This document shows, piece after piece, positions 3,001-34,139 of a stretch of DNA of 64,000 nt. The notes below the pieces were generated by a model, which saw only the letters and a program-made list of their open reading frames with translations, did not search any database and was not told where the DNA came from. The position numbers were made by a program, and so were the translations under genes. The DNA lies in NCBI GenBank assembly GCA_016180525.1, contig JACPBB010000001.1:169180-233179 (forward strand), given 5' to 3'. Source of the stretch: Parcubacteria group bacterium (lineage in GTDB: Bacteria; Patescibacteriota; Minisyncoccia; Phycocordibacterales; UBA2135). Each line of letters opens with the position of its first letter. Position 1 is the first letter of the stretch.

Positions 3001-3087
3001 ACCTCTCCGCGCGACCATTCCCGCATACGCTCGGGGGATGCGAGTTTGATAATGATTGAATTAAAGTCTTTTGTTTGTGGATTCATA
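1..3087 (-). CDS. rpoC: DNA-directed RNA polymerase subunit beta' (partial; 3' end beyond window start)
   Basis: Minus-strand reading frame starts at ATG 3087..3085 and translates [83 protein letters not shown]..., the canonical beta' N-terminus with its Zn-binding Cys motif. The frame stays open to position 1, so it is absent from the ORF track. It lies directly downstream of rpoB. Confidence 0.92.
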
Positions 3088-3091
3088 ATGC

Positions 3092-3170
3092 TAGGCTTTA
3101 GGCTTTAGGCTTTAGGCTTTAGGAATATCGTTTTTTCCTAGCGCCTAGTGCCTAATAACCTAGAGCCTCA
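3092..3170. repeat. Intergenic imperfect-palindrome element, copy 1: (TAGGCTT)x4-TAGG / 14-nt loop / CCTAGCGCCTAGTGCCTAA. It lies between the rpoB stop and the rpoC start, ending 4 nt before the rpoC ATG.
   Basis: Tandem 7-mer TAGGCTT x4 at 3092-3119. The downstream half (3137-3170) is its imperfect reverse complement in 5-bp modules separated by 2-nt mismatches. Two further copies with the same architecture are at 36887-36964 and 43202-43287. Confidence 0.8.
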
Positions 3171-14230: not shown

Positions 14231-14237
14231 AAAAATA

Positions 14238-14268
14238 AGAGTTCTCTTTAGAGAACTCTTATTTTTGC
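14238..14268. terminator. Bidirectional intrinsic terminator (AAGAGTTCTC-TTTA-GAGAACTCTT) shared by rnr (+) and rplU (-)
   Basis: Perfect 10-bp stem. A-run upstream and T-run downstream serve both strands. The rplU stop codon lies in the loop. Confidence 0.75.
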
Positions 14269-14670
14269 GTATGTTTGCCGATGTCCATACCGCCTCGTCC
14301 ATCTGCTTTTTGATTTAAATTTGAGCACATTGATTTTTTTGCCGCGCACCTTGTCTTCGAACACAGCACCTACTGTTTCTCCGACAAGATACGGAGTTCC
14401 AATTTTTATCTCTTTCCCATCAGAGACAAGAAGCACTTTATCAAAGACAATAGCATCCCCTTTTTTGTGGATATCAGAAAGTTTCTCAATTAAAAGCGTA
14501 TCGCCCGAAGAGACTTTGTATTGTTTCCCCCCTGTTTCAATAATCGCAAAACCGGACCCCAGTTTTGATGCTAATTTTGAAGTAGCTGGTGCGGTTTTTT
14601 TTGAAACAGCGGCCTTTGTTTTTTTTGCTGCCAGTTTCACCGCTTTTTTGACTGTTTTTGTTTCTGCCAT
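14248..14670 (-). CDS. rplU: 50S ribosomal protein L21 with Lys/Ala-rich N-terminal extension
   Basis: Core …FAIIETGGKQYKVSSGDTLLIEKL… is the bL21 signature. The N-terminal ~40 aa are KKTKAAVSKK-type low complexity. Confidence 0.85.
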   Translation of the reverse strand: MAETKTVKKAVKLAAKKTKAAVSKKTAPATSKLASKLGSGFAIIETGGKQYKVSSGDTLLIEKLSDIHKKGDAIVFDKVLLVSDGKEIKIGTPYLVGETVGAVFEDKVRGKKINVLKFKSKSRWTRRYGHRQTYAKIRVL

Positions 14671-14673
14671 AAT

Positions 14674-14944
14674 TTATCCCGTTCCAGAAAGGAAGCGCTT
14701 TAGTCTCTTTTTAAGATAGAGCCTGCCCTTTCCTGATTTAAGATACTTTTCTCTCGACCGAGCATCGTGCTCGTTAATACATGCTTCATAATATATAAGT
14801 TGAAATGGTCCCCGTCCTTTTGTCCATGCTCGCTCTTCTGTATCCCTCTCGTGCTCTTTAAAGCGCTTCCGTAGGTCTTTTGTCCTTCCAGTATACCATC
14901 TTCCGCTTTATCTTGCTTTGTAGCATATAAACATAAAACATCAT
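14674..14944 (-). pseudogene. GIY-YIG nuclease superfamily gene (UPF0213-like) interrupted by a +1 frameshift/in-frame TAA
   Basis: Reading from ATG 14944: MMFYVYMLQSKI in one frame, then after skipping one nt in a gatAAAg tract, SGRWYTGRTKDLRKRFKEHERDTEERAWTKGRGPFQLIYYEACINEHDARSREKYLKSGKGRLYLKKRL in the +1 frame. Together these match the GIY-YIG consensus (YVYIL.S.DG.LYTG.T.DL.RRL.EHN…). The ORF-track frame (14700..14984) has no such similarity. The gene ends 4 nt before the rplU start. Confidence 0.6.
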
Positions 14945-15045
14945 ATTCTGGAACGGGATTAACTGTAAATAATATAGAATTCATTTAAAAAAGCAACTAT
15001 TTAAAAAGGCCGCTATATTTTATGAACGGCCATATTTATATAAAA

Positions 15046-15657
15046 CTAATTAATTACCCTCGCCTTTTTACACGCATCGGTAAATTCACGAAGGAGTGAC
15101 TCCCTCAGTATTTTTTCTGCCTCTGCTTCAAAATCTATTTCCCACAAAATAGCATGGTTAAAAATCTCATTGAGACCGCAAATAATGTCAGGAAGGTCTT
15201 TGCATAATTTTGGATCCCCTTGTTTTACGGTAGAAAATCCATGTTCCCGACTATAATATGCAAATGTCTCCAGAGAAAGATCAATCCTGAAAAAATCAAG
15301 AATCCCCACTCCATCATCATTTCTTTTCCAGCCTTCATGAAATACGGGATATTGAAGCCCTTCTCGTGGAAATACCGGAGGCTGCACAAAAATCATCTTC
15401 CCTATAATCATAACGACCCGATTTTCCTTTGCCCTCCACGTAGCAACCCGTGGATGCTCTGGGATCCAGCATAAATGCGTAAAAAATGATTCGTCTTTGG
15501 CTTTAAAAATAGAGGCTCCGTGTTCCCCTAAATCATCACGGCAACACATGAAATCTCCAACTAAAAGATGTGAAGTATCAGGCCCATATTTGGGAAGGCA
15601 TTTGTTTGTCATAAATAGTAAATCCTGTATTTCATCCCAAACAGTTTTTGAGCTCAT
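15046..15657 (-). CDS. hypothetical protein (Cys/His-rich, 203 aa)
   Basis: Single long ORF; no family recognised. Confidence 0.5.
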   Translation of the reverse strand: MSSKTVWDEIQDLLFMTNKCLPKYGPDTSHLLVGDFMCCRDDLGEHGASIFKAKDESFFTHLCWIPEHPRVATWRAKENRVVMIIGKMIFVQPPVFPREGLQYPVFHEGWKRNDDGVGILDFFRIDLSLETFAYYSREHGFSTVKQGDPKLCKDLPDIICGLNEIFNHAILWEIDFEAEAEKILRESLLREFTDACKKARVIN

Positions 15658-15811
15658 GTAAAATAGCTCTTTCTTGCATCTGTGTATAATGTTATACCGT
15701 AACGGCTTTTAGTCAACGGTAACGCGTACTGTTCATGGCAAATATAATACTTTTTGATTTAAGGCTTGATGTCGTGTAATATTCTTAAAGATACACACTA
15801 GAGAGCCGTTC

Positions 15812-16219
15812 ATGCGAATATTAAAATCTTCGTGGGGTCTTGTCATTGCGATTGCGTTACTCAGTATTTTAAAAATCTCTCCAGCATTAGGAAGCCATGA
15901 AGGCCCCTATGTAATTGGAGAAACAAAACATATTAAAAATGTGTGGGTCTGTACGGAAGAGAAGCCTCTGCAAGATGCCGTTGCCGCCTTGCCAGACTGG
16001 GATATAATGCTAGAAACTATTTCAGAAAGCGTAGAGTGTTTTTACTTAAGTATCACCTTGGAAGTAAGGGTTCTGGGTCAAATTGGTAAAGACAAGGTGG
16101 ATGAAAATGGTGTGTTGTATCGTATTGTGAGTGTTAAAAACCCGATACACAATTCCAACTTGTATCTTCTAGTAATGGGAAGTGAAACAAAAGTTATTTC
16201 ACCAAGCCGCACCCTATAA
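15812..16219 (+). CDS. hypothetical secreted protein
   Basis: 135 aa with N-terminal signal-like segment MRILKSSWGLVIAIALLSILKISPALG. Confidence 0.5.
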   Translation: MRILKSSWGLVIAIALLSILKISPALGSHEGPYVIGETKHIKNVWVCTEEKPLQDAVAALPDWDIMLETISESVECFYLSITLEVRVLGQIGKDKVDENGVLYRIVSVKNPIHNSNLYLLVMGSETKVISPSRTL

Positions 16220-16236
16220 GTTATTTTAATATAAAA

Positions 16237-16266
16237 AACTCCCTTCATCGGGAGTTTTATTTTAAA
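16237..16266. terminator. Bidirectional intrinsic terminator (AACTCCC-TTCATC-GGGAGTT + T-run)
   Basis: Sits between the 16219 stop (+) and the rmuC stop at 16283 (-). Confidence 0.7.
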
Positions 16267-16282
16267 ATTACAAGCGCGAAAC

Positions 16283-17335
16283 TTACTCTTCCTCAAAAAT
16301 CGGTTTTTCGAGAGTAAGCGGCTCAATGCTTGACTCTTTGCCCGTGATACGAACCACGTCTTTATCAATTTTTTTAAACTCTTTGTACGCCGAGCTGTAG
16401 TGCGACACGGTGGTTTTCAATGAAACTCCAAGTTTTTTTAAAAATGAATCATAGCTGTCAATATGCCGTCCCAGCTCTCCTACCCGTTTAATGATTTCAG
16501 TTGCCTGCTCTTCTATCTGTAAAGCCTTGAGACCTTGCAGCACCGTCTGTAAATACGCGAGAAATGACGTGGGAGAGACAATAATAACTTTTTTGTCCCG
16601 AAACGCATATTCAACGAGATCCCTCGTGTTTATTTTTACCGCTCCGACTTGAGAGATGAGGAGGTCATAGTAAATCGCTTCATGTGGAATAAACATAAAC
16701 GCAAAGTCTAATGTCCCCTCTGTAGGTTTCACATACTGCGCTGTTTCGTCAATCCTGTTTTTTAAATCTTGTTTAAATGCTTTTTCAAGCCGCTCTCTCT
16801 CCATGGCATCTTTCGCTTCAACAAGACGAGTATAATTTTCAAGTGAAAATTTTGAATCTATCGGAATTATTTTATCTTTCACAAAGACAACGGCGTCCAC
16901 GATGCTGCCGTCTTTAAATGCGTACTGCATTTGAAAACTTCCAGGCGGCAGTACATTTTTAAGCACTGCTTCCAAATAGTATTCACCCAAAATTCCTCGC
17001 TGTTTTGGATTTTTTAAAATATCCTGCAATTCCTGCAATTTTTCCATTGAGCCCACCATCTGCCGTCCCGTTTCTTTCATTAAAGTAAGTTCTTCGGTCA
17101 CTTCTTTAACCAATTTTTGTGATTCAGAAAATTGTCGGCCCATTGATTCACTGATGTGCTTGTGTGACTGCCCGAGACGCTCGTCCAGAGTTTTTGTAAG
17201 CATGTTGAGCTGCTGTTGAAGCAGTAAAAATCCCTGTGCATCTCCTCCTGCCTCTCTCTTGCGCACGAAAAAGAAGGCAACCGCTGCGCCCGCTATAATA
17301 CCGAGGATAATAAAAATAATTGAAATGTTGTCCAT
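16283..17335 (-). CDS. rmuC: DNA recombination protein RmuC
   Basis: 350 aa with N-terminal TM helix, long coiled-coil and C-terminal RmuC nuclease-like domain (…NPKQRGILGEYYLEAVL…IPHEAIYYD…). Confidence 0.8.
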   Translation of the reverse strand: MDNISIIFIILGIIAGAAVAFFFVRKREAGGDAQGFLLLQQQLNMLTKTLDERLGQSHKHISESMGRQFSESQKLVKEVTEELTLMKETGRQMVGSMEKLQELQDILKNPKQRGILGEYYLEAVLKNVLPPGSFQMQYAFKDGSIVDAVVFVKDKIIPIDSKFSLENYTRLVEAKDAMERERLEKAFKQDLKNRIDETAQYVKPTEGTLDFAFMFIPHEAIYYDLLISQVGAVKINTRDLVEYAFRDKKVIIVSPTSFLAYLQTVLQGLKALQIEEQATEIIKRVGELGRHIDSYDSFLKKLGVSLKTTVSHYSSAYKEFKKIDKDVVRITGKESSIEPLTLEKPIFEEE

Positions 17336-20513: not shown

Positions 20514-20833
20514 ATTACTCTATATACTATATGATACAAATAGTTACAATTACGGAGGAAATGATGCTCGGTTTTACGAAACCAGTACGTAGCCCTCAAG
20601 TAAAGGAGACGACCATAAAAATTTCTCAATTATGCGATGCTGCAATTGAAGCGCAGTTAGTATTTCTCAAAGAGGAACATGCGCAACAGAGAAAGGTGGT
20701 GACTGCTGCTGCGGGTATTTCTGGGCGTGTTTACGAAAACGAGCTAGAGCTTGAAGCGGCTATTGAAGCAGATATATCTTTTTTCCAAACAGAATTGACA
20801 AAGAGAAACAGGCAAAAAAAATCAGCAGCATAA
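20507..20833 (+). CDS. hypothetical protein (start uncertain; possibly ATG 20561)
   Basis: ORF only; it overlaps the pcm start by 7 nt and the mpg stop by 12 nt. Confidence 0.3.
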   Translation: MTYYSIYYMIQIVTITEEMMLGFTKPVRSPQVKETTIKISQLCDAAIEAQLVFLKEEHAQQRKVVTAAAGISGRVYENELELEAAIEADISFFQTELTKRNRQKKSAA

Positions 20834-21403
20834 CACAAACCTCATTTTCTTTTTAGACCACACTGGTCCAGCATAGCCGACACCCACTCTGGGTGTCTTT
20901 TTTATGTCGCGCTTCTTTATTTTTACCCCCCTATCCTCAAACCAAAGCCCTGCTTTAGGAGACGCGCGAAGCGCGTTTAGTTTTTTATCTATCTTTAAAA
21001 ACTTCGTCAACTTCCCCGGCCCGTCGCAAAGCGAGGCTCGCCAATCTTTAATTGGCGCTCCATCCAAACTCTGGACATCCGATGTCCAGAGTTTGGCAGC
21101 ACGGATTAAGACAGCGGCAGGATATTCTTTGGGGCCTGTTACCACATTGAGCATATAGTACATGCCATAGCAGAGATAGATATATAAATGCCCCGCGGGG
21201 CCAAACATTATTTCTGTGCGAGCAGTTTTACCTTTGTGAGCGTGACTTGCTTTATCATGTGACCCGTCATACGCCTCTGTTTCAGTAATCATAAGGACAA
21301 TTTCTTTTCTTCCCATTTTCCGCACCAAAAACTTTCCAAGTAAATCCCTCGCGACAATACTTGCGTTTCTATTAAAAAATTCTTGCTTTAAAATTTTTCG
21401 CAT
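20822..21403 (-). CDS. mpg: DNA-3-methyladenine glycosylase (Mpg/AAG family)
   Basis: 193 aa; …ETEAYDGSHDKASHAHKGKTARTEIMFGPAGHLYIYLCYGMYYMLNV… and …AVLIRA…DGPGKL… match the MPG fold. Confidence 0.85.
   Translation of the reverse strand: MRKILKQEFFNRNASIVARDLLGKFLVRKMGRKEIVLMITETEAYDGSHDKASHAHKGKTARTEIMFGPAGHLYIYLCYGMYYMLNVVTGPKEYPAAVLIRAAKLWTSDVQSLDGAPIKDWRASLCDGPGKLTKFLKIDKKLNALRASPKAGLWFEDRGVKIKKRDIKKTPRVGVGYAGPVWSKKKMRFVLCC
21064..21096. repeat. 33-nt perfect palindrome (16-bp arms) inside the mpg coding sequence, with an adjacent 7-bp-arm palindrome at 21041-21059
   Basis: ccaaactctggacatc c gatgtccagagtttgg and cgccaat cttta attggcg. Both strands therefore encode LWTSDVQSL. Confidence 0.8.
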
Positions 21404-21407
21404 AAGT

Positions 21408-22115
21408 TTAAACTTCTTCTAATGTTTGCGCTTCAGTTACTTTAAAATCCCCAATTCTTGTCCGGCGCAACTCTTTGACTGTTGCGGGCACATTAAGCCG
21501 CCTGCCAACCTCCTCGGCAATAGAGCGCACATACGCCCCGCTTCCCACATCCATCTCGACAAAAAGAATAATTTTCCCGTCTTTTTTTATTATTCCCAAA
21601 AGTTCAATCTTGAAAATATTCATTTTCTTTTTGGGCAGGATAACAGATTCACCTCGTCGCGCTTTTTTATAGAGCGGCTCGCCACTTTGTTTTATCGCAG
21701 AATATGCGGGAACCGGAAGTTCAATTTCCCCAATAAGGCCCTCAAAAACTTTTTTAATCTCTTTCTCGTCAACAAAATTGACTTCTTTTTCTTCTAATAC
21801 TCGTCCTTCCATATCCCCAGTATCCGTTCGTACTCCCAAGAGAATGTGAGCTTCATACGTTTTAGGCAGTTTCAAAAATTCTCCCATCTTTTTGGTTCCA
21901 TCCCCTATTCCTAAAATTAAAAGTCCTGTTGCGAGCGGATCAAGCGTCCCGGCATGCCCAATTTTCAATTCGCCATATCGTCTTTTGAGCTCACGGATAA
22001 CATCATATGAGGTCACGCCTTTCGGTTTATCAACAAGAAGAATTTCGGGTAATTCCTTTTTTTGTTTTTTCCTAAAAAATGTCTTTAAAAAATGCATGGT
22101 GTTATACAACATCAT
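21408..22115 (-). CDS. truB: tRNA pseudouridine55 synthase
   Basis: Catalytic motif …GHAGTLDPLATGLLILGIG…; N-terminal start ambiguous. Confidence 0.9.
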   Translation of the reverse strand: MMLYNTMHFLKTFFRKKQKKELPEILLVDKPKGVTSYDVIRELKRRYGELKIGHAGTLDPLATGLLILGIGDGTKKMGEFLKLPKTYEAHILLGVRTDTGDMEGRVLEEKEVNFVDEKEIKKVFEGLIGEIELPVPAYSAIKQSGEPLYKKARRGESVILPKKKMNIFKIELLGIIKKDGKIILFVEMDVGSGAYVRSIAEEVGRRLNVPATVKELRRTRIGDFKVTEAQTLEEV

Positions 22116-22201
22116 ACGACATTTTTCAATACCTGCAAGGTTGAGAAATCGAGGGGAAAAAGGCTACAATGGGACCAGAAGCTTTTTGAAAGGTATTACT
22201 C

Positions 22202-24244
22202 ATGGCCGACGAAAAACAGAAGCGTCTGTGCGATGAAGTTCGTATTGCGCTTCTTTCACGCATAGATTATTGCGGAGACGGATATCGCAAACGCCTCATG
22301 GAATGTGGATTTAATCTCGCAAAGCTGGAACAAGTCGCTTTCCTTGTGTTGGTGGGTGGGCTTGTCCACAATGAAGGTCTTAAGGAACGAATTCAGGAAG
22401 AGCTTGCGGAAGAGAAGGTGAAGCCAAAGAAAAAGCGACGCAGTCGCGCAGATGTCATTGACCGTGTTTTAAGTGAGGTCGCGGAAGAACTTGCAAAACA
22501 AATTCCAAGTATCACTCTACCCGGTACCGAAAAGAAAATTCGTCTGTATATCATGACCTCCCCAGCCTATGATGGAAAATATGGGGCAGCAATTGCCGAA
22601 AGACTCGCTGTTCTCCGCCCAGACGATATTCGCCACTGGGCAAAGGCAAGCGAGCATTTGCCACTTGAGCCGGCACCGCATGAAAAATTCAAAGAAATTG
22701 CCTGTCTCGTACCGAGGACAACTTCATTCCGTTCAAAATATGACTCCACTGCAGTAGACCGAGTTGTTGAAGACTATCTGAATACTGCGAAAAAGGCGTA
22801 CGCACCTGTCGTTATTGTCGGTTGCTTTAATGTAAATTTTCACAAGCCGGCAGGCGGTGAAAGCTCGATTCATATCATTGGACTTCCCGGATCAAGCCGT
22901 ATTGAAGAGAACCGCGCTTCAGAAAACCAAGTTGGTTTGACAATACTTAGAATCACTAATGACGGAAACCTGTTCGTAAAATCTCACAACTTCAATGACC
23001 TAGTGGTCAGAGAGCGTGAGTCAATCAATATTTCGCCGAAGTATAACAAGACAACACAGCGCGTGCTTGAACAGTTCAAGCACCGGACATGGTGGACGCT
23101 GGGTCTTCTTTCGGAAAAACTTGGCGTACCCCGCGACGAACTCAAGAAAACGCTTAACAGTATTGTAAAGCGACCGAGGCTCAATCCTCCGCTTAAATAT
23201 GACGAATCTTCGCAGCGATATTTTATTCCTCGTCCGTGGATCCAGAAAAATGTTACATATCCCTATCCGTGGCCGACGAAAGAATTTATTGAAGAGCGGT
23301 TTTTGTCTTTTGGCTGCTTGCACGCTCTGTGCCGACATACCGCGCACGAGTTCATGCTTGATGAAATGCCAAAACTTATGCTCAAATATAACATTCATCA
23401 CCTCATTGGTGGTGGAGACTTCATTGAAGGCCGTTCACACGGTCTTCCGGAAAATGGAGAATTGCTTTTTGGCGCCACGTATGACGCGCAAGAGAAGTTT
23501 GCCGCATGGCTTGTGGCAGAAGTCCTTCTCCGAGTCTTTAAAGAGCGTATTCAAAAATTGACGCAAACTGCGGACAAGAAACTGTTTACCGATGAAGCTG
23601 CCGTTCTTAACTTCATCAAAGCGACCCTTCCTGATTTTTGGTACATTCCTGGAAATCATGACGAATGGACTGAAAGAGTCGCGTTTGAAGCTCTGACGGT
23701 GTTCCGTTATGAACTGTTTCAACTCGTTCGTAGGGGTGTAACAGAGACGCTGAAAAACACAGGTCTTGTTGTACCGGCAATCCTTGAACAATTCATTGAA
23801 AGCACTATGGTGAAAATGAGCCCTCTGGACGCCGCTATGCATTCGTCAGGCGTTTCTCTGTCGCTGAACCATCTTCACATGGGCAGAACGCAGACAAAAA
23901 CGATTCGGAGTCAAGCGCTCTTGGGCGCAACGACTGCCGTTATCAACATTCACGCGAATTTTCACACCGCTCTTTCTATGTCTCGCTTTGACCCGAACAT
24001 TGGCCAGCGCGTCGTTCAGCAGATTGGAACACTCAAGCTTCGCTCAGGATTTGAAGACCGAAAAGGAAAAAAAGTTGACTTTGGAGTCGGATATCTCCGA
24101 GTCGGACTAGAGCAGCGTGGTAATGAAAAAGTTATCCTGATGCACGAGGTCGCGCTTTTCGGAGATCCGGCAAAATATCAGAGTATCGAAAATAGAGGTT
24201 TTATTGAATCTTTCAAAAAGAAAATTTTCGGAAAAAAAATCTAA
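22202..24244 (+). CDS. large hypothetical protein with C-terminal calcineurin-like metallophosphoesterase motifs (GD-x2-[DE]…GNHDE…H-x-N-F-H)
   Basis: 680 aa; …HHLIGGGDFIEG… about 65 aa …IPGNHDEW… then …INIHANFH…. The N-terminal ~400 aa have no recognisable family. Preceded by a TTGAGA-N18-TACAAT promoter-like sequence; followed by a strong terminator. Confidence 0.55.
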   Translation: MADEKQKRLCDEVRIALLSRIDYCGDGYRKRLMECGFNLAKLEQVAFLVLVGGLVHNEGLKERIQEELAEEKVKPKKKRRSRADVIDRVLSEVAEELAKQIPSITLPGTEKKIRLYIMTSPAYDGKYGAAIAERLAVLRPDDIRHWAKASEHLPLEPAPHEKFKEIACLVPRTTSFRSKYDSTAVDRVVEDYLNTAKKAYAPVVIVGCFNVNFHKPAGGESSIHIIGLPGSSRIEENRASENQVGLTILRITNDGNLFVKSHNFNDLVVRERESINISPKYNKTTQRVLEQFKHRTWWTLGLLSEKLGVPRDELKKTLNSIVKRPRLNPPLKYDESSQRYFIPRPWIQKNVTYPYPWPTKEFIEERFLSFGCLHALCRHTAHEFMLDEMPKLMLKYNIHHLIGGGDFIEGRSHGLPENGELLFGATYDAQEKFAAWLVAEVLLRVFKERIQKLTQTADKKLFTDEAAVLNFIKATLPDFWYIPGNHDEWTERVAFEALTVFRYELFQLVRRGVTETLKNTGLVVPAILEQFIESTMVKMSPLDAAMHSSGVSLSLNHLHMGRTQTKTIRSQALLGATTAVINIHANFHTALSMSRFDPNIGQRVVQQIGTLKLRSGFEDRKGKKVDFGVGYLRVGLEQRGNEKVILMHEVALFGDPAKYQSIENRGFIESFKKKIFGKKI

Positions 24245-24256
24245 ATAACGTATATT

Positions 24257-24288
24257 AAAGGAGTTCACCTGAACTCCTTTTTTTAATT
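24257..24288 (+). terminator. Intrinsic terminator (AAAGGAGTTCA-CC-TGAACTCCTTT + T-run)
   Basis: Perfect 11-bp stem. Confidence 0.8.
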
Positions 24289-24401
24289 CACAAATGTATT
24301 TTATATGGTGGATGTTTTAAAAAATCATTTTATCTTATCGTCAAGGTTTTTTATTTTTTTGGGATGTTATTATGAACACAGATTAAAAAAAGGGGTGTTT
24401 C

Positions 24402-25190
24402 ATGGCGACAAAATTCGCACTGCATAAAATAAAAGTAATAATGCCAGATGATACGGTGTTTACCTTCTGGTTTGACGGCAACGGAAAAATTACTGCAGGA
24501 AACGGAACATTTGATTCCCCCGTTCCAAATGCCTTCTCGCTCGTACAAGTCAAAGACTGTCCGTCGGCAACACCGACATGCACCAGCGTTTGCTATGTGC
24601 ACAACCTTGAAAAAGCGGAGGCTGAGGTGCACGGCAAATATGCCCACAACAGCGTCACCATTCGTAAGATTCTTCAGAATGCCATTTATCGGCAAGCAAC
24701 TGAATTTGAATTTGTTCATTGGATAAAGAAAAACAATATCCGAGAATTCAGATGGCACGTCTCCGGTGATGTCTTTTCAAAAGAATACGCAAAATTTGTT
24801 GTATCGGTGTGTAATTTAGCTCCGGATGTTTTATTTTGGATTTATACGCGCTCATTTAATTTTGTTGAAACACTGCAAGAAGCACCCAATTTGGTTGTAA
24901 ATCTCTCGGCAGACAGAGACAATTATAAAAAAGCACTTGAAATAAACAGAAAATACGGAGTCCGTATCTGCTATCTTTCTCTTGAAGGAGAGATTCCTAA
25001 GGATTTGCCAAAAGGGTCCGTCATTTTCCCAAACTACACGCTTCGCGGAAGAGATTTGCCCGTTCCTACAGAAGCTCCATTTTGGAAACAGCTTACGCTG
25101 AAACAAAAAAAGATGGTGTGCCCGCCGGATTTCTTCGGCCAAAGCGAAAAACTCCGCTGCGGCCCGTGCCGGAAGTGCATGGTTCATTAA
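24402..25190 (+). CDS. phage Gp37/Gp68 (DUF5131)-like Cys-cluster protein
   Basis: 262 aa; N-terminal C-x6-C-x3-C-Y (…DCPSATPTCTSVCYVHN…), then …WHVSGDVF… and …VLFWIYTRSFN…, resembling the DUF5131 layout W.NP..GC…S.GC..CYA … GDLF … W.ILTKRP. C-terminal CPPD…C-x2-C-x2-C. Assignment from memory of the family pattern. Confidence 0.45.
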   Translation: MATKFALHKIKVIMPDDTVFTFWFDGNGKITAGNGTFDSPVPNAFSLVQVKDCPSATPTCTSVCYVHNLEKAEAEVHGKYAHNSVTIRKILQNAIYRQATEFEFVHWIKKNNIREFRWHVSGDVFSKEYAKFVVSVCNLAPDVLFWIYTRSFNFVETLQEAPNLVVNLSADRDNYKKALEINRKYGVRICYLSLEGEIPKDLPKGSVIFPNYTLRGRDLPVPTEAPFWKQLTLKQKKMVCPPDFFGQSEKLRCGPCRKCMVH

Positions 25191-25214
25191 CCCCGCAATA
25201 GCGGGGTTTTTTCT
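25191..25214 (+). terminator. Intrinsic terminator (CCCCGC-AATA-GCGGGG + TTTTTT)
   Basis: Perfect 6-bp GC stem right after the stop. Confidence 0.8.
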
Positions 25215-25273
25215 TGCATTTATTTCTTATTTACCTATACTCCTAAACAGAACTTGAAATTCGGAAGCATCAG

Positions 25274-26152
25274 GTGTCTGAGACAATATCGCAAGAAAAA
25301 TTTCTTACATTAATGCGTTTGTGCTGCACAAAAGAGACAAGCGCGAGTCCCGATACGTGGACTCCTAAAAATCCCCTGTGGGGGCATTGTGCCGCTGTTT
25401 CCCTTGTCGCTCAAAACATGTTTGGAGGTACACTTCTGCGTGTCTCTCTTACAGATACCCCGTTTAAAGCTATGCGGTCACACTACTTCAATAAATTACC
25501 CGATGGAACCGTCATCGATTTTACCAAAGAACAGTTTGGGAAATTATATCCAAGTGGTTTAAAAACAAAGACACGAACCTGCGGAAGCATTCTTGAACAT
25601 GAAAGCACCAGAAACCGCTATAAAAAACTTGCTCTCCGTTTTGCCTATGAAATGACTCAAAATGTGCTCCTTTTGCACCCTTTATATGGGGCATGTTTTG
25701 AAGCCGCACTTGATTCCGGATGCCAAAAACTATGGGTTGGCTCCGTACTCGTGCATAATGGAGTTGTTGTCTCTTCGGGTAATAACCATCCTGTAGAAGA
25801 GCTCGCGCATGTCTGCAAACCAAAGTGTATTCGCTTCAATATTCAATCAAGAACTGAATCAATGATTGGTGCGTGTGGGCACGCGGAAGAATACGCCATG
25901 TGGGAGGCTATCCAAAAAGGAATCCCGCTTTCTGAGTGCGATATGTATGTCGCTATGGTCGGCACAGACGGATTGCCGCGGTTTAGAAGCGACCCTTCTG
26001 TTGGATATACTTGCCTACGATGCGCAACAGCAATGCGTTTGGCTGGTATCAAAAATGTATATATTGATATTGTTGACCATTGGGAAAAAATCAGTATTAA
26101 GGATGCACTACAAAGCGCATTGCAATATGCTCTTGGTGAAAAGAAACTATAA
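25274..26152 (+). CDS. two-domain protein: unknown N-terminal domain + C-terminal dCMP/cytidine-deaminase-like zinc-binding domain
   Basis: The C-terminal half reads …SGCQKLWVGSVLVHNGVVVSSGNN…ACGHAEEYAMWEAI…YTCLRCATAMRLAGIKNVYI…. These are the CDA-fold H-A-E and C-x2-C zinc motifs plus the dCMP-deaminase AGIK.V tail. The N-terminal ~140 aa (…NPLWGHCAAVSLVAQNMFGG…) are unassigned. Confidence 0.6.
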   Translation: MSETISQEKFLTLMRLCCTKETSASPDTWTPKNPLWGHCAAVSLVAQNMFGGTLLRVSLTDTPFKAMRSHYFNKLPDGTVIDFTKEQFGKLYPSGLKTKTRTCGSILEHESTRNRYKKLALRFAYEMTQNVLLLHPLYGACFEAALDSGCQKLWVGSVLVHNGVVVSSGNNHPVEELAHVCKPKCIRFNIQSRTESMIGACGHAEEYAMWEAIQKGIPLSECDMYVAMVGTDGLPRFRSDPSVGYTCLRCATAMRLAGIKNVYIDIVDHWEKISIKDALQSALQYALGEKKL

Positions 26153-26249
26153 GTAATATGTGTTAAAATTCCAGCGTTTGCTGGATTTTTTTGCAAAAAC
26201 ATTTTTTCCCTATATACTATTCACAGATTATTCAAACGAGGCACCAGAG

Positions 26250-27245
26250 ATGATACAGGACGATGTGTGTATTGACCACGAACGTATACAGGCTATTGCC
26301 CGAACTATTGCTTCCATTCCTGAGCATGGTGGAACATTAAATTTCCACAGCATTGAAACACCGCAAGGTGCACGAGTGCTTTCCGATATGTATCCAGACG
26401 TTGATGACGCTCATGCGATTGATTTCTTTTTCTTTGCCATTCTTCATGATCATGGATTCTGGTTTGGAGATGATGCGGGATATGTCAGCCCTCTGTATGG
26501 AACCATTCTTGGGAAAAACAAGGTAAAGGGTTCTGATTTATTGTGGAAGTCATTAAAACGATCGTTTGATAAAAACCCAACCATCGTAACCATAGAGCGC
26601 CTTTTAAAAATAACTCCGGAGGAATTTGCCGATGTGTTTTCAGATGATAACGGACCAATTCCGTTTCCCGACTGGGAGGCTCGGTATATGCTTACAAAAC
26701 AATACGCGCAGTGGTTTCTAGCCGCGCGCATAAAACCCAAAGACATGCTTTTAAAAGTACGCGCCACGCCCAAACCACTCTTGGAATTTAGAAATCTTAT
26801 GCGAGTTGTACCGGGCTATACAGATCCTTTCAATAAAAAAACACTACTCCTTGCTATGGTGCTTTCATTGCGCCCAGAAAAATTTTTATCCGTCACGGAT
26901 ACAGAGTCATGGGACCCAATTATTGATTACCACCTTATGCGTCTTGCGTTACGGATGGGAATAGTGGCTATTCCGAATTCTAACCCACTCTACAAAAGGC
27001 TGACAAAACGAAATTGGGTAAATGCGGATGAAGAATTATTTATACGACAAGAAGTATATCAGGCAATGAAGAAAGTATTGCAGTACTCACGTAAGCCGCT
27101 TGCGTTTGTAGATTATGCATTCTGGTCTGGAAGAAAATTTTGCCCAGAAATGACGGAACCGAATTGCAGAGAGTGTCCATTTCAGAGTGTGTGCGCAAAA
27201 AAAACTGAGTTATTTCAACCGATATTTAGAACGCTCAATTATTAA
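26250..27245 (+). CDS. HhH-GPD superfamily N-glycosylase-like protein with endonuclease-III-type [4Fe-4S] cluster loop and ~190-aa N-terminal extension (possible Qng1/DUF2419-like or divergent DNA glycosylase)
   Basis: Start taken at ATG 26250 (MIQDDVCIDHERIQ…); promoter-like ttgcaa…tatact lies inside the ORF-track 5' extension. HhH-like …VPGYTDPFNKKTLLLAMVL…. …IDYHLMRLALRMGIV… resembles the EndoIII VDTHIFRVCNR segment with the catalytic Asp. C-terminal C-x7-C-x2-C-x5-C (FCPEMTEPNCRECPFQSVC). Confidence 0.5.
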   Translation: MIQDDVCIDHERIQAIARTIASIPEHGGTLNFHSIETPQGARVLSDMYPDVDDAHAIDFFFFAILHDHGFWFGDDAGYVSPLYGTILGKNKVKGSDLLWKSLKRSFDKNPTIVTIERLLKITPEEFADVFSDDNGPIPFPDWEARYMLTKQYAQWFLAARIKPKDMLLKVRATPKPLLEFRNLMRVVPGYTDPFNKKTLLLAMVLSLRPEKFLSVTDTESWDPIIDYHLMRLALRMGIVAIPNSNPLYKRLTKRNWVNADEELFIRQEVYQAMKKVLQYSRKPLAFVDYAFWSGRKFCPEMTEPNCRECPFQSVCAKKTELFQPIFRTLNY

Positions 27246-27258
27246 AGCGAGATAAAAT

Positions 27259-27287
27259 AAAGCCCAACTGTTTTGGTTGGGTTTTTC
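27259..27287. terminator. Bidirectional terminator (AGCCCAAC-TGTTTTG-GTTGGG + TTTTT) between convergent genes
   Basis: Between the 27245 stop (+) and the 27300 stop (-). Confidence 0.65.
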
Positions 27288-27299
27288 TAAAAATTAAGA

Positions 27300-27671
27300 T
27301 TACTTTTCTGCCATATGCTTCATCACTAAAAAGAAGCTTTTGTCGGGTCCATTTTTTATTTCCACTTCATTCGCAACAACAACTCGCTTTCTAATGCCGA
27401 GCATTTCCGTAAGCATAAATACTCCTCCCATATCAAATTTTGAACCATAACTTTTCTCGTCATACCAAATATGCACCTCATCGGCATCTAAAATTGCCTG
27501 AAAATTTGTCCTACAGATATTCACTCCGCCCGTCGGGTCATCTTGTTCCGTATCCAGAGTCGGCCAGTGAACACGGTGTCCTTGTTTTTCAAGCTGCTTT
27601 ACGTACTTTGCAATTTTAGCGTTCGTTTTTTTACTTGCGTTCGTGACCGGACAAACAAGAAATATTTTCAT
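27300..27671 (-). CDS. nucleoside 2-deoxyribosyltransferase-like / DNPH1(Rcl)-like protein
   Basis: 123 aa; MKIFLVCPVT… Rossmann-like N-terminus typical of the family, and a …D…SYGSKFDMGGVFML… segment at the expected position. Family-level only. Confidence 0.45.
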   Translation of the reverse strand: MKIFLVCPVTNASKKTNAKIAKYVKQLEKQGHRVHWPTLDTEQDDPTGGVNICRTNFQAILDADEVHIWYDEKSYGSKFDMGGVFMLTEMLGIRKRVVVANEVEIKNGPDKSFFLVMKHMAEK

Positions 27672-28345
27672 GCGCTCATTCCTACCGAAAAGTACTTTTT
27701 CAATCGCTCCACCGTTTCAGACCAGAGTTTTCTATCAATTTTAGGGTCCATGTCGCGCCAATTAGCACGCTCGGGCCTACCAAGCGCTTCGGCAAGACGA
27801 GTACGGAAATATTGTGCCGGAACACCTTTCGGATCCCATATAATGTCAGTTTTTTGGTCAACACCGGGAGGCCTGGAGAGAAGATATCCATCTCCAATCT
27901 TTCCAACTCCTTCGGGAATTCCATTCGTTACAAAATTAAATTGCTCATATAAAGTTTCGGGAAAGTCCTGCAGCATTTTTGTAGTGAGGTCTACATGAGC
28001 GGGAACTATGTGTAAGTGCGCATGCTTCACTGTCTGTCCGACTATTCCATGTTCAAACAATATTACAGACCGTTCGCCAACAGTAGAACCATTATATGCT
28101 CCATATTCATCGTGAACCAAATCCTCTACGTACAACAACAAATGAGTTAATTTTACTTGCTCTTTTTCTGTAAGTAAATTCATACAGATTACATGACGTT
28201 TCGGGAATACAAGCACATGTCCACCGTCAGTAATCTGCCCCAGTGTCGCGATAACAAAAAATTCATTGGTTTCTGTAATAATACGCTCTTTAAATGTTTC
28301 GCGATTGCAGAACGGACAATCTTTTTCCATACATTTCTTCTCCAA
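27668..28345 (-). CDS. HIT-family nucleotide hydrolase/transferase
   Basis: Histidine triad HAHLHIVP; N-terminal CPFC; overlaps the downstream gene by 4 nt (operon). Confidence 0.75.
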   Translation of the reverse strand: MEKKCMEKDCPFCNRETFKERIITETNEFFVIATLGQITDGGHVLVFPKRHVICMNLLTEKEQVKLTHLLLYVEDLVHDEYGAYNGSTVGERSVILFEHGIVGQTVKHAHLHIVPAHVDLTTKMLQDFPETLYEQFNFVTNGIPEGVGKIGDGYLLSRPPGVDQKTDIIWDPKGVPAQYFRTRLAEALGRPERANWRDMDPKIDRKLWSETVERLKKYFSVGMSA

Positions 28346-28448: not shown

Positions 28449-29201
28449 GTGGATGTTTTTTTGACAGCAGTTTTAACAATCACCCTAATCCTGTTATCCT
28501 CTCCATGTCATGAATTAGGACACATATACGCAATGCGTAAGTTTAATATTCCCATTAAAAAAATTGGATGGAGTTTTGTTCGGGTTGAGCGGGAGGGGGA
28601 CATAGAAAAGCTTGATTTAAAAGACCAAATATACATCTCTGGCGCAGGGCCCTTGTCCAGTATAATCTTTGGGACGATACTTCTTACCATTGCGGGAATA
28701 CGAGTGAATCCTCTTGCAATAGGAGATTTTCAAATCAACTTGCTATTGTGGGCGCCCGTTGTAGCATTGACCATAATTATTTTCGCCCGTTGGTGTTGCC
28801 AATATATTATTCCTCTTGTGGGGCTCTTAGAAATAATTCTCTTGTCCGACTTTCTTTTTTGGCTTTTTACTCATTCGCTTAATGATATTATAGGTGAGCC
28901 AATATCAGCTTCTACTATAAGAATAACTGCACAGCAAACAGTAGAAAACGTGGGTATCGTGTTTACGGCGACGTTCATAGCCGGTTTCTGTTCTCTATTT
29001 TCGGGTGCATTGAATATGTTGCCATTTTACCCAATAGACGGTGGACGCATCGTTCGAGCATATATAAAGACATTCAGTGTTAGTATTGCCGACTGGTTCG
29101 CAATTGTAGGATACTTGCTATACATTGTAATTCGCTTGGTATTGGCAATAGGTTTTGTCGTGTTTCTTTTGTCATCAGATTTAGAAGCTTTTATGAAGTA
29201 A
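28449..29201 (+). CDS. site-2 protease family (M50) membrane metalloprotease
   Basis: HELGH zinc motif at the N-terminus and conserved …LNMLPFYPIDGGRIVRA… (the LDG motif) in a polytopic membrane protein. Confidence 0.8.
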   Translation: MDVFLTAVLTITLILLSSPCHELGHIYAMRKFNIPIKKIGWSFVRVEREGDIEKLDLKDQIYISGAGPLSSIIFGTILLTIAGIRVNPLAIGDFQINLLLWAPVVALTIIIFARWCCQYIIPLVGLLEIILLSDFLFWLFTHSLNDIIGEPISASTIRITAQQTVENVGIVFTATFIAGFCSLFSGALNMLPFYPIDGGRIVRAYIKTFSVSIADWFAIVGYLLYIVIRLVLAIGFVVFLLSSDLEAFMK

Positions 29202-29207
29202 GAATTA

Positions 29208-29240
29208 GGCCCCGATGTTTTCATCGGGGCCCTTTAATTA
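29208..29240 (+). terminator. Intrinsic terminator (GGCCCCGATG-TTTT-CATCGGGGCC + CTTTAATT)
   Basis: Perfect 10-bp stem after the stop. Confidence 0.8.
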
Positions 29241-29317
29241 ACCATTAACGCTTTTAAATACTGTACAAAGAGCCGTATTTTTTGAAATAAAAAGCAATAA
29301 GTTTAAAATCCTGACAA

Positions 29318-29345
29318 AAAACTGTACAGTGTGTCGTACAGTTTT
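29318..29345. terminator. Bidirectional hairpin (AAAACTGTAC-8 nt-GTACAGTTTT)
   Basis: Perfect 10-bp stem whose arms include the A/T runs. On the minus strand it lies about 90 nt downstream of repeat copy A1. Confidence 0.6.
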
Positions 29346-29430
29346 TTGTTGCTACTGTTTGTGCTGAACCCTTAGATCGTAGTCTAAAAGTTAAGTACAA
29401 AAAAATCTATCAGCCCCAGATTAACAGATA

Positions 29431-33701: not shown

Positions 33702-33897
33702 AACAATGTTAATAACCGCACATTCACGGCCTTTAATGGTGACTTCACCGGGATAAGAACAACTGGGAAACCCACGGTTTTCCCAATCCTTCCTCCACGG
33801 GGAACTACCGTTCCCCGACCTCCTCCCGTTCAAATCCAGGAGAAAGATTCATTAAGTAAAATTAAATCTATTTTCAACAGATTTAATTTTACTTATG

Positions 33898-33972
33898 TGA
33901 CCTCACCGGGATTTGAACCCGGGTTTCAGCGTTGAGAACGCCGCGTCCTGGACCAGGCTAGACGATGAGGCC
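33898..33972 (-). tRNA. tRNA-Glu (anticodon CUC)
   Basis: Minus-strand GGCCTCATCGTCTAGCCTGGTCCAGGACGCGGCGTTCTCAACGCTGAAACCCGGGTTCAAATCCCGGTGAGGTCA. Cloverleaf with 7-bp acceptor (one G-U), anticodon stem CGGCG/CGCTG, loop TTCTCAA (anticodon CTC), T-arm CCGGG-TTCAAAT-CCCGG. No encoded CCA. Confidence 0.85.
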
Positions 33973-34139
33973 AGCAAGTGCTTCGCACTAAAAATTCTAA
34001 ATCCTAATTTCTAAACATTAAGAAATAGACTTTAAAATCATACCATATTTTGAGAAAAAATCTATTGGATTATATATGAATATGCGGCAAATTTATTTTA
34101 TACTGTATAATAGAAGTAATGAAAAAAGGAGAACTACGC

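What the first reader, a model, noticed from the sequence alone, without database searches (positions are those of the whole stretch)
22141..28345. Accessory island of nucleobase/nucleotide-processing enzymes with a phage-associated DUF5131-like gene: candidate salvage, modification or nucleotide-targeting defence system
Six consecutive non-housekeeping genes lie between truB and an S2P protease. Four plus-strand genes each have their own promoter-like sequence and a strong terminator: a 680-aa metallophosphoesterase-domain protein, a Gp37/Gp68(DUF5131)-like Cys protein, a two-domain dCMP-deaminase-fold protein and an HhH-GPD/Fe-S glycosylase-like protein. Convergent to them is a two-gene operon of a nucleoside 2-deoxyribosyltransferase-like protein and a HIT hydrolase. 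Every product acts on nucleotides, nucleosides or N-glycosidic bonds. GC content is slightly elevated. Taken together this does not look like scattered housekeeping. Candidate roles are (i) base or queuine/7-deazapurine salvage in an auxotrophic symbiont, (ii) a DNA/nucleotide hypermodification pathway of phage origin, or (iii) a nucleotide-depletion/base-editing antiviral module. I cannot place the combination in any described system.
Basis: partly seen in the sequence, partly recalled or inferred. Interest (0 to 1): 0.78.

Follow-up and report, generated by a model that had tools for sequence, protein, structure and literature searches.

The report
Loose nucleotide-salvage gene neighbourhood in Patescibacteria
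Six neighbouring genes for nucleotide-handling enzymes in a tiny symbiotic (Patescibacteria) bacterium are real, but they are separately transcribed salvage/repair-type genes that mostly lie apart in related genomes, not a mobile island, a defence system or a phage DNA-modification pathway.

Summary
The six ORFs exist as described, and four intrinsic terminators separate them. Several details are wrong. GC is not elevated (0.4295 against 0.4286 for the window). Promoter-like sites are at chance level. The "DUF5131-like" gene is a GP88 (PF17338) phage-family protein. The "HhH-GPD/Fe-S glycosylase" is a Qng1/DUF2419-like protein (queuosine salvage fold) that also carries a MutY/EndoIII-type four-Cys loop. 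The 680-aa protein is a Patescibacteria-wide metallophosphoesterase resembling PolD-DP1 and Mre11, with a winged helix.

Neighbourhood tests gave little support for a system. With 80 loci anchored on the Qng1-like gene, 80 on the deoxyribosyltransferase-like gene, and 10 further lineages anchored on the other genes, the six genes never recur together. Only scattered pairs recur: g1-g3, g1-g4, g3-g4, g4-g5, g5-HIT and g5-YunG. The usual neighbours are housekeeping genes: ClpXP and PCMT for g1, and NDK, M50 and ComEC for g5. PADLOC gives no defence assignment. Only g2 and g5 have relatives on viral contigs, always alone.

The best reading is a lineage-specific juxtaposition of nucleotide salvage and repair genes in an organism that cannot make nucleotides. 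It may include a small functional core, g1/g3/g4/g5. The Fe-S-bearing Qng1-like family is the most interesting by-product.

The parts
22141..22170 (+). sigma-70-like site upstream of g1 (TTGAGA-18-TACAAT)
   Evidence: 10 of 12 matches. The number of such sites in the region equals the chance expectation, so this is weak evidence.
22202..24244 (+). g1: 680-aa Patescibacteria-specific protein. It has an N-terminal degenerate MPE-like domain, a winged helix (about residues 276-327) and a C-terminal metallophosphoesterase domain. Predicted nuclease or phosphodiesterase.
24257..24280 (+). intrinsic terminator after g1
   Evidence: 10-bp stem followed by TTTTTAATT.
24402..25190 (+). g2: GP88-family (PF17338) Cys-rich protein of phage type, function unknown
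   Evidence: Pfam E 1.8e-33, phrog_1392 E 7.9e-30. 387 phage records, all annotated hypothetical. 862 clusters in 1.84 billion representatives. Invariant C53, C60, C64 and nearly invariant C240, C253, C256, C259. No DUF5131 hit in 30 members.
25189..25208 (+). intrinsic terminator after g2
   Evidence: 8-bp stem with 6 GC pairs, then a T-run.
25274..26152 (+). g3: YunG domain (N-terminal) fused to a zinc-dependent CDA-fold deaminase (C-terminal), dCMP-deaminase-like
   Evidence: PF24585 E 1.9e-20 and PF00383 E 1.7e-9. More than 225 homologues; all 120 listed hit YunG and most also hit the deaminase domain. Invariant C201-G-H203-A-E205 and C247-x-x-C250; H38-C39 and D82 conserved in the YunG part.
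26170..26185 (+). intrinsic terminator after g3. It lies inside the mechanically extended g4 ORF.
26250..27245 (+). g4: Qng1/DUF2419-like nucleotide N-glycosidase with a C-terminal Cx7Cx2Cx5C loop (predicted 4Fe-4S)
   Evidence: 115 homologues, about half passing PF10343, some named 'queuosine salvage family protein'. Profile against PDB: human and S. thermophilus Qng1, E 2.9e-6. AF2 pLDDT 94.7. Foldseek: top 11 hits are Qng1 (TM 0.72-0.78), then MutY/EndoIII (TM about 0.4). Conserved K196, D226-Y227, D288...W292, C-terminal Y331, and C298/C306/C309/C315. GAGG plus ATG at 26250.
27263..27281 (.). bidirectional terminator between the convergent g4 and g5
   Evidence: A-run, CCCAAC-loop-GTTGGG, T-run.
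27300..27671 (-). g5: small protein resembling nucleoside 2-deoxyribosyltransferase/Rcl. The motif S-x-G-S-x-F-D-x-G has Asp where NDT has the Glu nucleophile.
   Evidence: PF05014 E 0.012, below threshold. Conserved motifs. 80 metagenome relatives. Commonest adjacent gene is NDK, in 15 of 64 loci. No PDB sequence match.
27668..28345 (-). g6: HIT-family hydrolase with CxxC and HxHxH motifs plus a C-terminal extension of about 100 aa. Overlaps g5 by 4 bp.
   Evidence: DcpS_C E 5.7e-7, HIT E 1.7e-5. PDB HIT proteins E 1.6e-6. Motifs CPFC and HAHLHIV read from the translation.

Best explanation
This is an ordinary chromosomal neighbourhood of a Parcubacteria-group (Patescibacteria) genome. Nucleotide-salvage and nucleic-acid-processing genes happen to lie side by side in this lineage. 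It is not a discrete island or multi-gene system.

Four genes are transcribed on their own, and g6-g5 form one small operon. The inferred roles are as follows (biochemistry inferred, not shown):
- g1 is a DP1/Mre11-like metallophosphoesterase with a DNA-binding winged helix. It would cut or trim nucleic acid.
- g3 would deaminate dCMP or a related cytosine nucleotide to supply dUMP.
- g4 would work like Qng1, hydrolysing the N-glycosidic bond of a guanine-type (possibly queuosine) nucleoside 5'-monophosphate to free the base. It has an added Fe-S loop.
- g5 would exchange or remove bases on (deoxy)nucleosides or nucleotides.
- g6 would hydrolyse a nucleotide phosphoramidate or dinucleotide.
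- g2 is a phage-type Cys-rich protein acquired or retained only in this lineage.

Together they fit the need of an organism without de novo nucleotide synthesis to recycle scavenged nucleic acid. The recurrent pairs among g1, g3, g4 and g5 may reflect real but loose functional coupling.
For: Organism and lifestyle: g4 and g3 are 100% identical to proteins of a 'Parcubacteria group bacterium' MAG on a 344-kb contig. Patescibacteria lack de novo nucleotide synthesis (PMC10633639).

Family assignments.

Separate transcription units: a terminator follows each plus-strand gene.

No island signature: GC equals the window. Flanks are housekeeping genes: MPG, TruB, PCMT, YqeY, RmuC and M50.

Dispersal: the g4 anchor had 80 loci and 1.05 Mb of flank, and only L003 and L010 carry another of the genes by tblastn. 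L002 also has a split, highly divergent g1, seen only by profile comparison. The g5 anchor had 80 loci and 0.62 Mb of flank, with only L105 and L123 positive. g1 sits beside PCMT, ClpX and ClpP. g5 sits beside NDK, M50, ComEC and RecA. g3 is alone in L091 and L185-L187.

The closest relative, L090, keeps MPG-truB-g1-...-g3 but has g5 between them and lacks g2, g4 and g6.

Loose coupling, as recurring pairs:
- g3-g4-g1 in L003.
- g3-g1 in L093/L094.
- g4 next to a split g1 in L002.
- g5 next to g4 in the window, L082 and L010, in three different orientations.
- g5-HIT in L105 and YunG-g5 in L123.
Against: The concentration of six nucleotide-related genes is still striking. Immediate g4-g5 adjacency in three arrangements, and g1 with g3/g4 in several Yanofskybacteria, are more than a rough chance estimate predicts. 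That estimate is about 0.2% per genome for immediate adjacency of two single-copy genes in a genome of about 1,000 genes. A small real module may therefore be hidden inside the region.

No biochemical function was tested. g2 and the YunG domain have no known activity. Many comparison contigs are short: only 51 of 80 g4 loci and 27 of 80 g5 loci have at least 2 kb on both sides. tblastn at E 1e-3 misses very divergent homologues; L002's split g1 was seen only by profile comparison.
Confidence: 0.62

Rival explanations
1. A genuine small salvage module. g4 (Qng1-like NMP glycosidase) with g5, and possibly g1 and g3, would form a Patescibacteria pathway that liberates queuine or another guanine-type base from scavenged nucleotides. 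The base would be reused, for example inserted into tRNA by TGT. The other genes would be bystanders.
For: g4 keeps the Qng1 catalytic, ribose-binding and base-anchoring residues and the C-terminal Tyr (PMC9881137). It has the Qng1 fold. Three relatives are fused to a PfkB kinase, which fits a nucleoside -> 5'-NMP -> base route. g4-g5 adjacency is seen in three arrangements, and g4-g1 and g4-g3 adjacency in Yanofskybacteria. A bacterial-type TGT with no QueA is found in the fetched loci, 8.5 kb from g4 in L002.
Against: None of the 80 g5-anchored loci has g4, and 78 of the 80 g4-anchored loci have none of the other genes by tblastn; L002 additionally has a split g1 seen only by profile comparison. 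By profile alignment, the aromatic residues Y93 and W94 that shape the queuosine side-chain pocket are replaced by Ser-Asp, and W299 is not conserved. The genes are separated by terminators. One TGT within 10 kb among 80 loci is about what chance gives. No queuine transporter or TGT lies in the island.
Confidence: 0.27
2. A phage-derived nucleotide or DNA hypermodification pathway, built from the GP88-like protein, deaminase, glycosylase-like protein and deoxyribosyltransferase-like protein and integrated in the chromosome.
For: g2 belongs to a family found in 387 phage records and two IMG/VR contigs. g5 relatives occur on six viral contigs. phrog_174 dCMP deaminase matches g3 at E 2.3e-8.
Against: On viral contigs g2 and g5 occur without any other island gene. 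g4 (alignment scan) had no relative, and g3 and g6 (single-protein scans, close relatives only) had none, among 2.9 million viral contigs. No integrase, no flanking tRNA and no shift in GC. g1, g3 and g5 are broadly conserved CPR chromosomal genes.
Confidence: 0.04
3. An antiviral module based on nucleotide depletion or base editing.
For: Deaminases, HIT proteins and nucleosidases occur in known defence systems. There are weak PADLOC hits: ThsC-type HIT at E 1.3e-5 and dCTPase at E 0.0021.
Against: The hits are generic domain similarity. The NCBIfam anti-phage dCTP deaminase model scores 12 bits against a 400-bit cut-off. There are no partner proteins of any PADLOC system, no defence-island neighbours, and no conserved co-occurrence. 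g3 is near-universal in its clade with fixed architecture, as expected for metabolism rather than defence.
Confidence: 0.03

Closest known systems
Qng1 / DUF2419 (PF10343), queuosine-5'-monophosphate N-glycosidase (PDB 7uk3, 7u07, 7ugk)
   Same: g4 has the same two-lobe HhH fold (TM 0.72-0.78). It has equivalents of the HhH Lys (K196 = K199) and Asp-Tyr (D226-Y227 = D231-Y232). It also has the base-anchoring Asp and stacking Trp (D288/W292 = D298/W302), an aliphatic residue at I203 (L200), and a conserved C-terminal Tyr.
   Different: g4 scores below Pfam's threshold (17.7 bits against 25) and is 16-17% identical to the solved structures. It carries an extra invariant Cx7Cx2Cx5C loop before the C-terminus; the Qng1 paper does not contain the term iron-sulfur. 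By profile alignment the Q side-chain pocket residues Y93/W94/W299 are not conserved, so the substrate may differ.
Endonuclease III / MutY Fe-S HhH DNA glycosylases
   Same: HhH glycosylase superfamily. The C-terminal four-Cys loop has nearly the EndoIII spacing (Cx6Cx2Cx5C, from my own knowledge). These are the next-best structural matches.
   Different: TM is only about 0.4 and there is no Pfam HhH-GPD hit. The Qng1-type insertions and C-terminal Tyr point to a free nucleotide, not DNA, as substrate.
dCMP deaminase / ComEB (PF00383)
   Same: g3's C-terminal half has the H-A-E and C-x-x-C zinc and catalytic motifs.
   Different: It is fused to a YunG domain of unknown function. It scores far below the ComEB equivalog cut-off (21.6 bits against 219), and its best PDB match is only E 0.24.
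Nucleoside 2-deoxyribosyltransferase / Rcl (DNPH1) family (PF05014)
   Same: g5 has similar size, a weak profile match, and a G-S/T-x-F-acid-x-G motif at the position of the nucleophile (motif comparison from memory).
   Different: E 0.012 is below threshold, Asp replaces the Glu nucleophile, and no solved relative is found by sequence.
PolD small subunit DP1 / Mre11 / MJ0936 metallophosphoesterases
   Different: Motif I is C-x-H rather than D-x-H, and motif V is N-F-H. There is an additional N-terminal MPE-like domain and a Zalpha/MarR-like winged helix. The family appears restricted to Patescibacteria and has no Pfam model.
Pfam GP88 (PF17338) actinophage proteins
   Same: g2 matches over the full length (E 1.8e-33) and shares the conserved Cys pattern.
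   Different: g2 is encoded in a bacterial chromosome at 43% GC. Its closest viral relatives, at about 50% identity, are on 60% GC contigs. No member has a known function.

Membership tests
Qng1 / Q_salvage (PF10343) | Passes the Pfam gathering threshold | tested here: not met
   g4 scores 17.7 bits against a 25-bit cut-off. About half of its 115 homologues carry a precomputed PF10343 hit.
Qng1 / Q_salvage (PF10343) | Two-lobe HhH fold of the solved Qng1 structures | tested here: met
   Model pLDDT 94.7. The top 11 Foldseek PDB hits are all Qng1, TM 0.72-0.78, E about 1e-10.
Qng1 / Q_salvage (PF10343) | HhH-motif Lys and Asp (StQng1 K199, D231) plus Y232 | tested here: met
   K196 is invariant, D226 nearly invariant and Y227 invariant. 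They align to K199, D231 and Y232.
Qng1 / Q_salvage (PF10343) | Base-anchoring Asp and stacking Trp (D298, W302), and the terminal Tyr carboxylate (Y323) | tested here: met
   D288 is invariant. W292 is present in nearly all sequences. Y331 is the last residue in at least 90% of sequences.
Qng1 / Q_salvage (PF10343) | Aromatic pocket for the cyclopentenediol side chain (W48, Y93, W94, W299) | tested here: inconclusive
   The profile alignment puts S95-D96 opposite Y93-W94, and a variable residue opposite W299. No residue-level structural superposition was available.
Qng1 / Q_salvage (PF10343) | Hydrolysis of queuosine-5'-monophosphate to queuine | not testable with these tools
   Needs an enzyme assay.
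EndoIII/MutY Fe-S DNA glycosylases | HhH-GPD domain hit and close fold match | tested here: not met
   No PF00730 hit. TM about 0.4, far below the Qng1 matches.
EndoIII/MutY Fe-S DNA glycosylases | C-terminal four-Cys Fe-S cluster loop | tested here: met
   C298, C306, C309 and C315 are invariant in 28 sequences, with spacing Cx7Cx2Cx5C. Cluster binding itself was not tested.
DUF5131 (Gp37/Gp68, PF07505) | Profile match | tested here: not met
   g2 and 29 relatives hit only GP88 PF17338.
GP88 (PF17338) | Profile match above threshold over the full length | tested here: met
   116.8 bits against a 24.4-bit cut-off, covering profile positions 6-228 of 230.
dCMP/cytidine deaminase (PF00383) | H(C)-A-E and C-x-x-C zinc motifs, and the Pfam threshold | tested here: met
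   37.9 bits against a 25-bit cut-off. H203-A-E205 and C247/C250 are invariant. The ComEB equivalog is not met.
Nucleoside 2-deoxyribosyltransferase (PF05014) | Profile match above threshold and a Glu nucleophile | tested here: not met
   16.2 bits against a 28.8-bit cut-off. Asp80 is invariant at the aligned position among the four aligned relatives.
HIT superfamily | HxHxHxx motif and profile match | tested here: met
   HIT scores 25.8 bits against 21.5, and DcpS_C 30.4 against 24. The HAHLHIV motif is in the translation. PDB HIT proteins match at E 1.6e-6.
Metallophosphoesterase superfamily | MPE fold and metal-binding motifs | tested here: met
Known anti-phage defence systems (PADLOC-DB 2.0) | Significant hit to system components with partner genes present | tested here: not met
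   Only generic hits: HIT to ThsC at E 1.3e-5 and deaminase to dCTPase at E 0.0021. No partner genes.
Genomic island / mobile element | Compositional shift, integrase or tRNA border, patchy presence as a block | tested here: not met
   GC is equal to the window. The only tRNA in the window is at 33897-33972. No integrase among the annotated neighbours. The genes vary individually, not as a block.

The most novel reading that the evidence does not exclude
g4 may define an undescribed, Fe-S-cluster-bearing branch of the Qng1 fold. It would be a structural intermediate between free-nucleotide glycosidases and MutY/EndoIII DNA glycosylases. The branch is widespread in Patescibacteria and is also found in MAGs labelled Myxococcota, Acidimicrobiia and Chloroflexota. 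In some lineages it is fused to a PfkB nucleoside kinase. With the NDT-like g5, and perhaps the DP1/Mre11-like nuclease g1 and the YunG-deaminase g3, it would form a Patescibacteria-specific route. That route would strip and reuse guanine-type bases (queuine, or ordinary or preQ bases) from scavenged nucleic acid.
Probability: 0.25. Interest if true: 0.55.

Novelty: new member of a known kind. Interest (0 to 1): 0.3.

Why it matters
The negative result removes a candidate defence or hypermodification island from the list. It shows that thematic clustering in a streamlined symbiont genome can arise without a conserved system.

The positive by-products are modest but usable:
- A well-modelled Qng1-like family has a MutY-type Fe-S loop, an apparently altered substrate pocket and kinase fusions. 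It could reveal how ultra-small bacteria without nucleotide or queuosine synthesis obtain bases.
- A Patescibacteria-wide protein combines a DP1/Mre11-like phosphoesterase with a winged helix, has no annotation, and often sits beside ClpXP.

Both are directly testable by expression and enzyme assays.

Tried and rejected
- A metagenome scan anchored on a g1 alignment found 600 pattern matches but no true relative, because the generic MPE motifs were too unspecific. A first attempt with 32 sequences had no usable conserved stretch.
- Sequence searches of g2 and g5 against PDB gave nothing meaningful, only designed coiled coils and lithostathine at chance level.
- Literature searches for YunG returned only author names. 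Searching DUF5131, PF17338 and PF07505 found one paper, which mentions DUF5131 only, on the radical-SAM resource. Searching Patescibacteria plus queuosine found nothing relevant.
- I looked for TGT and QueA in the window and in all 2.08 Mb of fetched loci. There was one TGT (L002) and no QueA, too little to link g4 to tRNA queuosine. The L002 TGT has DEFT and GGVAVGGE where E. coli has DECT and GGLAVGE, which I could not interpret.
- The context of a PfkB-g4 fusion (L188) showed no TGT or transporter.
- The phage context of GP88 (Streptomyces phage Jay2Jay) is all hypothetical proteins plus ParB-like and Lsr2-like genes, so it was uninformative.
- Clustering of neighbours of g4 revealed no recurrent partner family. 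High-GC loci gave spurious long ORFs in my simple ORF caller.

Full report
**Observation.** The ORF list confirms six consecutive genes between truB (21408-22115, -) and an M50 peptidase (28449-29201, +):
- g1, 22202-24244+
- g2, 24402-25190+
- g3, 25274-26152+
- g4, mechanical ORF 26160-27245+
- g5, 27300-27671-
- g6, 27668-28345-

The real start of g4 is the ATG at 26250. The database copy of this very protein is 331 aa. All homologues begin there. A terminator hairpin (26170-26185) and a GAGG box precede it. Terminator-like hairpins also follow g1 and g2. A bidirectional hairpin separates the convergent g4 and g5. The region has 19 terminator-like sites against 9.3 +/- 3.4 in shuffles. Promoter-like sites are at chance level, 18 against 17.0 +/- 4.4. 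GC is not elevated: 0.4295 for 22141-28345 against 0.4286 for the window, and 0.428 +/- 0.015 for sliding 6.2-kb windows. g6 and g5 overlap by 4 bp, so they form one operon. The four plus-strand genes look like separate transcription units.

**What the proteins are.**
- **g2** is a full-length member of Pfam GP88 (PF17338, E 1.8e-33) and phrog_1392, not DUF5131. Thirty family members all hit GP88 and none hits DUF5131. The family has invariant C53, C60 and C64 and a second Cys group at 240-259. It occurs in 387 phage records, all annotated hypothetical.
- **g3** is a YunG domain fused to a deaminase with invariant C-G-H-A-E and C-x-x-C motifs.
- **g4** hits Q_salvage below threshold. A profile of 28 homologues finds human and Sphaerobacter Qng1 in PDB at E 2.9e-6. 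An AF2 model (pLDDT 94.7) matches all Qng1 structures first (TM 0.72-0.78), then MutY and EndoIII at TM about 0.4.
- **g4 active site.** Using the residue roles in PMC9881137, g4 keeps K199, D231, Y232, D298, W302 and the C-terminal Tyr, as K196, D226, Y227, D288, W292 and Y331. By profile alignment it does not keep Y93, W94 or W299 of the queuosine side-chain pocket. It adds an invariant Cx7Cx2Cx5C loop. Three relatives are fused to a PfkB kinase.
- **g5** matches Nuc_deoxyrib_tr only weakly (E 0.012). It has a G-S-x-F-D-x-G motif where, from memory, NDT has its Glu nucleophile.
- **g6** is a HIT protein with CPFC and HAHLHIV motifs and a C-terminal extension.

PADLOC and NCBIfam give no defence assignment.

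**Is it a system?** I anchored neighbourhood searches on each gene that could be searched.
- **g4 anchor.** 80 loci from species-representative genomes, with 1.05 Mb of flank. tblastn with all six proteins finds another island gene in only two. L003 (Yanofskybacteria) has g3-g4-g1, followed by a plain deaminase on the other strand. L010 (Tagabacteria) has g5 directly upstream of g4.
- **Other g4 contexts.** A 55%-identical g4 (L082) has a divergent neighbour in which g5 is fused to DUF7768. In L002, g4 is followed by two ORFs that profile comparison shows to be a split, highly divergent g1.
- **g5 anchor.** 80 metagenome loci with 0.62 Mb of flank. None has g4. One has an adjacent HIT gene (L105) and one an adjacent YunG-only ORF (L123). 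The commonest adjacent gene is NDK, in 15 of 64 loci. M50 peptidase follows in 10 loci, as in the window. ComEC with its MBL domain, RecA and SecA also recur.
- **g1 anchor.** Relatives at 69% (Wolfebacteria), 43% and 33% (Kaiserbacteria) identity lie next to PCMT, a ClpX-like ATPase and/or ClpP. None of g2-g6 is nearby.
- **g3 anchor.** More than 225 homologues; all 120 listed carry the YunG domain and most also the deaminase domain. g1 is adjacent in L093/L094 and, via g4, in L003. g1 is nearby in L090. g3 is alone in L091, L185, L186 and L187.
- **Closest relative.** L090 keeps MPG-truB-g1-[g5-like, 134 aa]-g3, followed by glutamate dehydrogenase. It lacks g2, g4 and g6. The window has the same dehydrogenase further on, at 34119.
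- **Viral contigs.** The two closest g2 relatives are on 60% GC contigs. The six g5 relatives are on contigs of 31-68% GC. All lack the other genes. g4, scanned with an alignment, has no relative on viral contigs, and g3 and g6, scanned as single proteins, have no close relative there.

**Interpretation.** The six genes never recur as a set. Most of them have their own, mostly housekeeping, contexts. There is no compositional, tRNA or integrase signature of an island. The region is therefore best read as a lineage-specific juxtaposition in a syntenic chromosomal stretch whose content varies gene by gene.

The recurring pairs, in different orders and orientations, are more frequent than a rough 0.2% per-genome expectation for immediate adjacency of two given genes. 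These pairs are g1-g3, g1-g4, g3-g4, g4-g5, g5-HIT and g5-YunG. I take this as evidence of loose functional relatedness in nucleic-acid breakdown and nucleotide and base recycling. That fits the lack of de novo nucleotide synthesis in Patescibacteria (PMC10633639). The individual reactions are inferred from family membership only.

**Comparison with known systems.** g4 works most like Qng1 but fails Pfam's threshold. It also differs by the Fe-S loop and by pocket residues that are probably altered. I did not find this variant described: the Qng1 structure paper does not contain the term iron-sulfur, and no paper links Patescibacteria to queuosine salvage. A bacterial-type TGT exists in at least one Yanofskybacteria locus (L002, 42% identical to E. 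coli Tgt). No QueA was seen in 2.08 Mb of fetched loci. Queuine salvage is therefore conceivable but unproven. None of the six proteins places the region in a described defence or DNA-modification system.

**Verdict.** Interest is low to moderate. It is carried by the Fe-S Qng1-like family and the DP1/Mre11-like winged-helix phosphoesterase rather than by the island.

Noticed in passing
window 22202-24244; L083-L089: The g1 family (about 650-720 aa, apparently restricted to Patescibacteria, no Pfam model) combines a degenerate MPE-like domain, a Zalpha/MarR-like winged helix and a DP1/Mre11-like MPE domain. It repeatedly lies beside a ClpX-like ATPase, ClpP or PCMT. One member is named 'helix-turn-helix transcriptional regulator' by NCBI.
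   Followed up: partly
P0109-P0111 (601 aa); L188:10001-11806: The Qng1-like domain is fused C-terminally to a PfkB carbohydrate/nucleoside kinase in three metagenome proteins. This suggests a kinase-then-glycosidase route. The neighbourhood of one fusion shows no TGT or transporter.
   Followed up: partly
L082:1755-2606 (-): A 283-aa protein fuses DUF7768 (E 1.9e-25) to a g5-like domain (55% identical to g5). It lies divergent to a g4 homologue, so it may be a tandem of two NDT-like domains.
   Followed up: partly
L002 8.7-13.7 kb, L003, L093/L094 10-13.8 kb: In Yanofskybacteria, one syntenic slot between a TPR gene and a MerR-like gene holds g3-g1-deaminase in L093/L094 and g4 plus a split g1 in L002. 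L003, a 6-kb contig without these flanks, carries g3-g4-g1-deaminase. g1 is the constant member and g3 and g4 are the variable ones.
   Followed up: partly
L002:281-1462 (-): A Yanofskybacteria TGT (42% identical to E. coli Tgt) has DEFT and GGVAVGGE where E. coli has DECT and GGLAVGE. This may mean altered base specificity. No QueA was found in any fetched locus.
   Followed up: no
L123:2389-2739 and 2782-3108; L105:1657-2344: A stand-alone YunG-domain ORF lies directly upstream of a g5 homologue (L123). A HIT gene lies directly downstream of another g5 homologue (L105). These echo the window's g5-g6 pair.
   Followed up: no
window 29207-29232 and 29312-29351: There is a very strong bidirectional GC-rich hairpin (8 GC pairs) after the M50 gene. 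A 16-bp AT-rich inverted repeat lies just downstream.
   Followed up: no
window 20822-21403 (-) and 12293-17335: Immediately upstream of truB is a methylpurine-DNA glycosylase (MPG, E 2.1e-54). RNase R (12293-14230) and RmuC (16283-17335) lie further upstream. The wider region is therefore also rich in nucleic-acid-processing genes.
   Followed up: no
L003:4897-5553 (-), L093:13139-13756 (-): A second, plain CDA-fold deaminase (205-218 aa) sits convergent to g1 in Yanofskybacteria. It is absent from the window.
   Followed up: no
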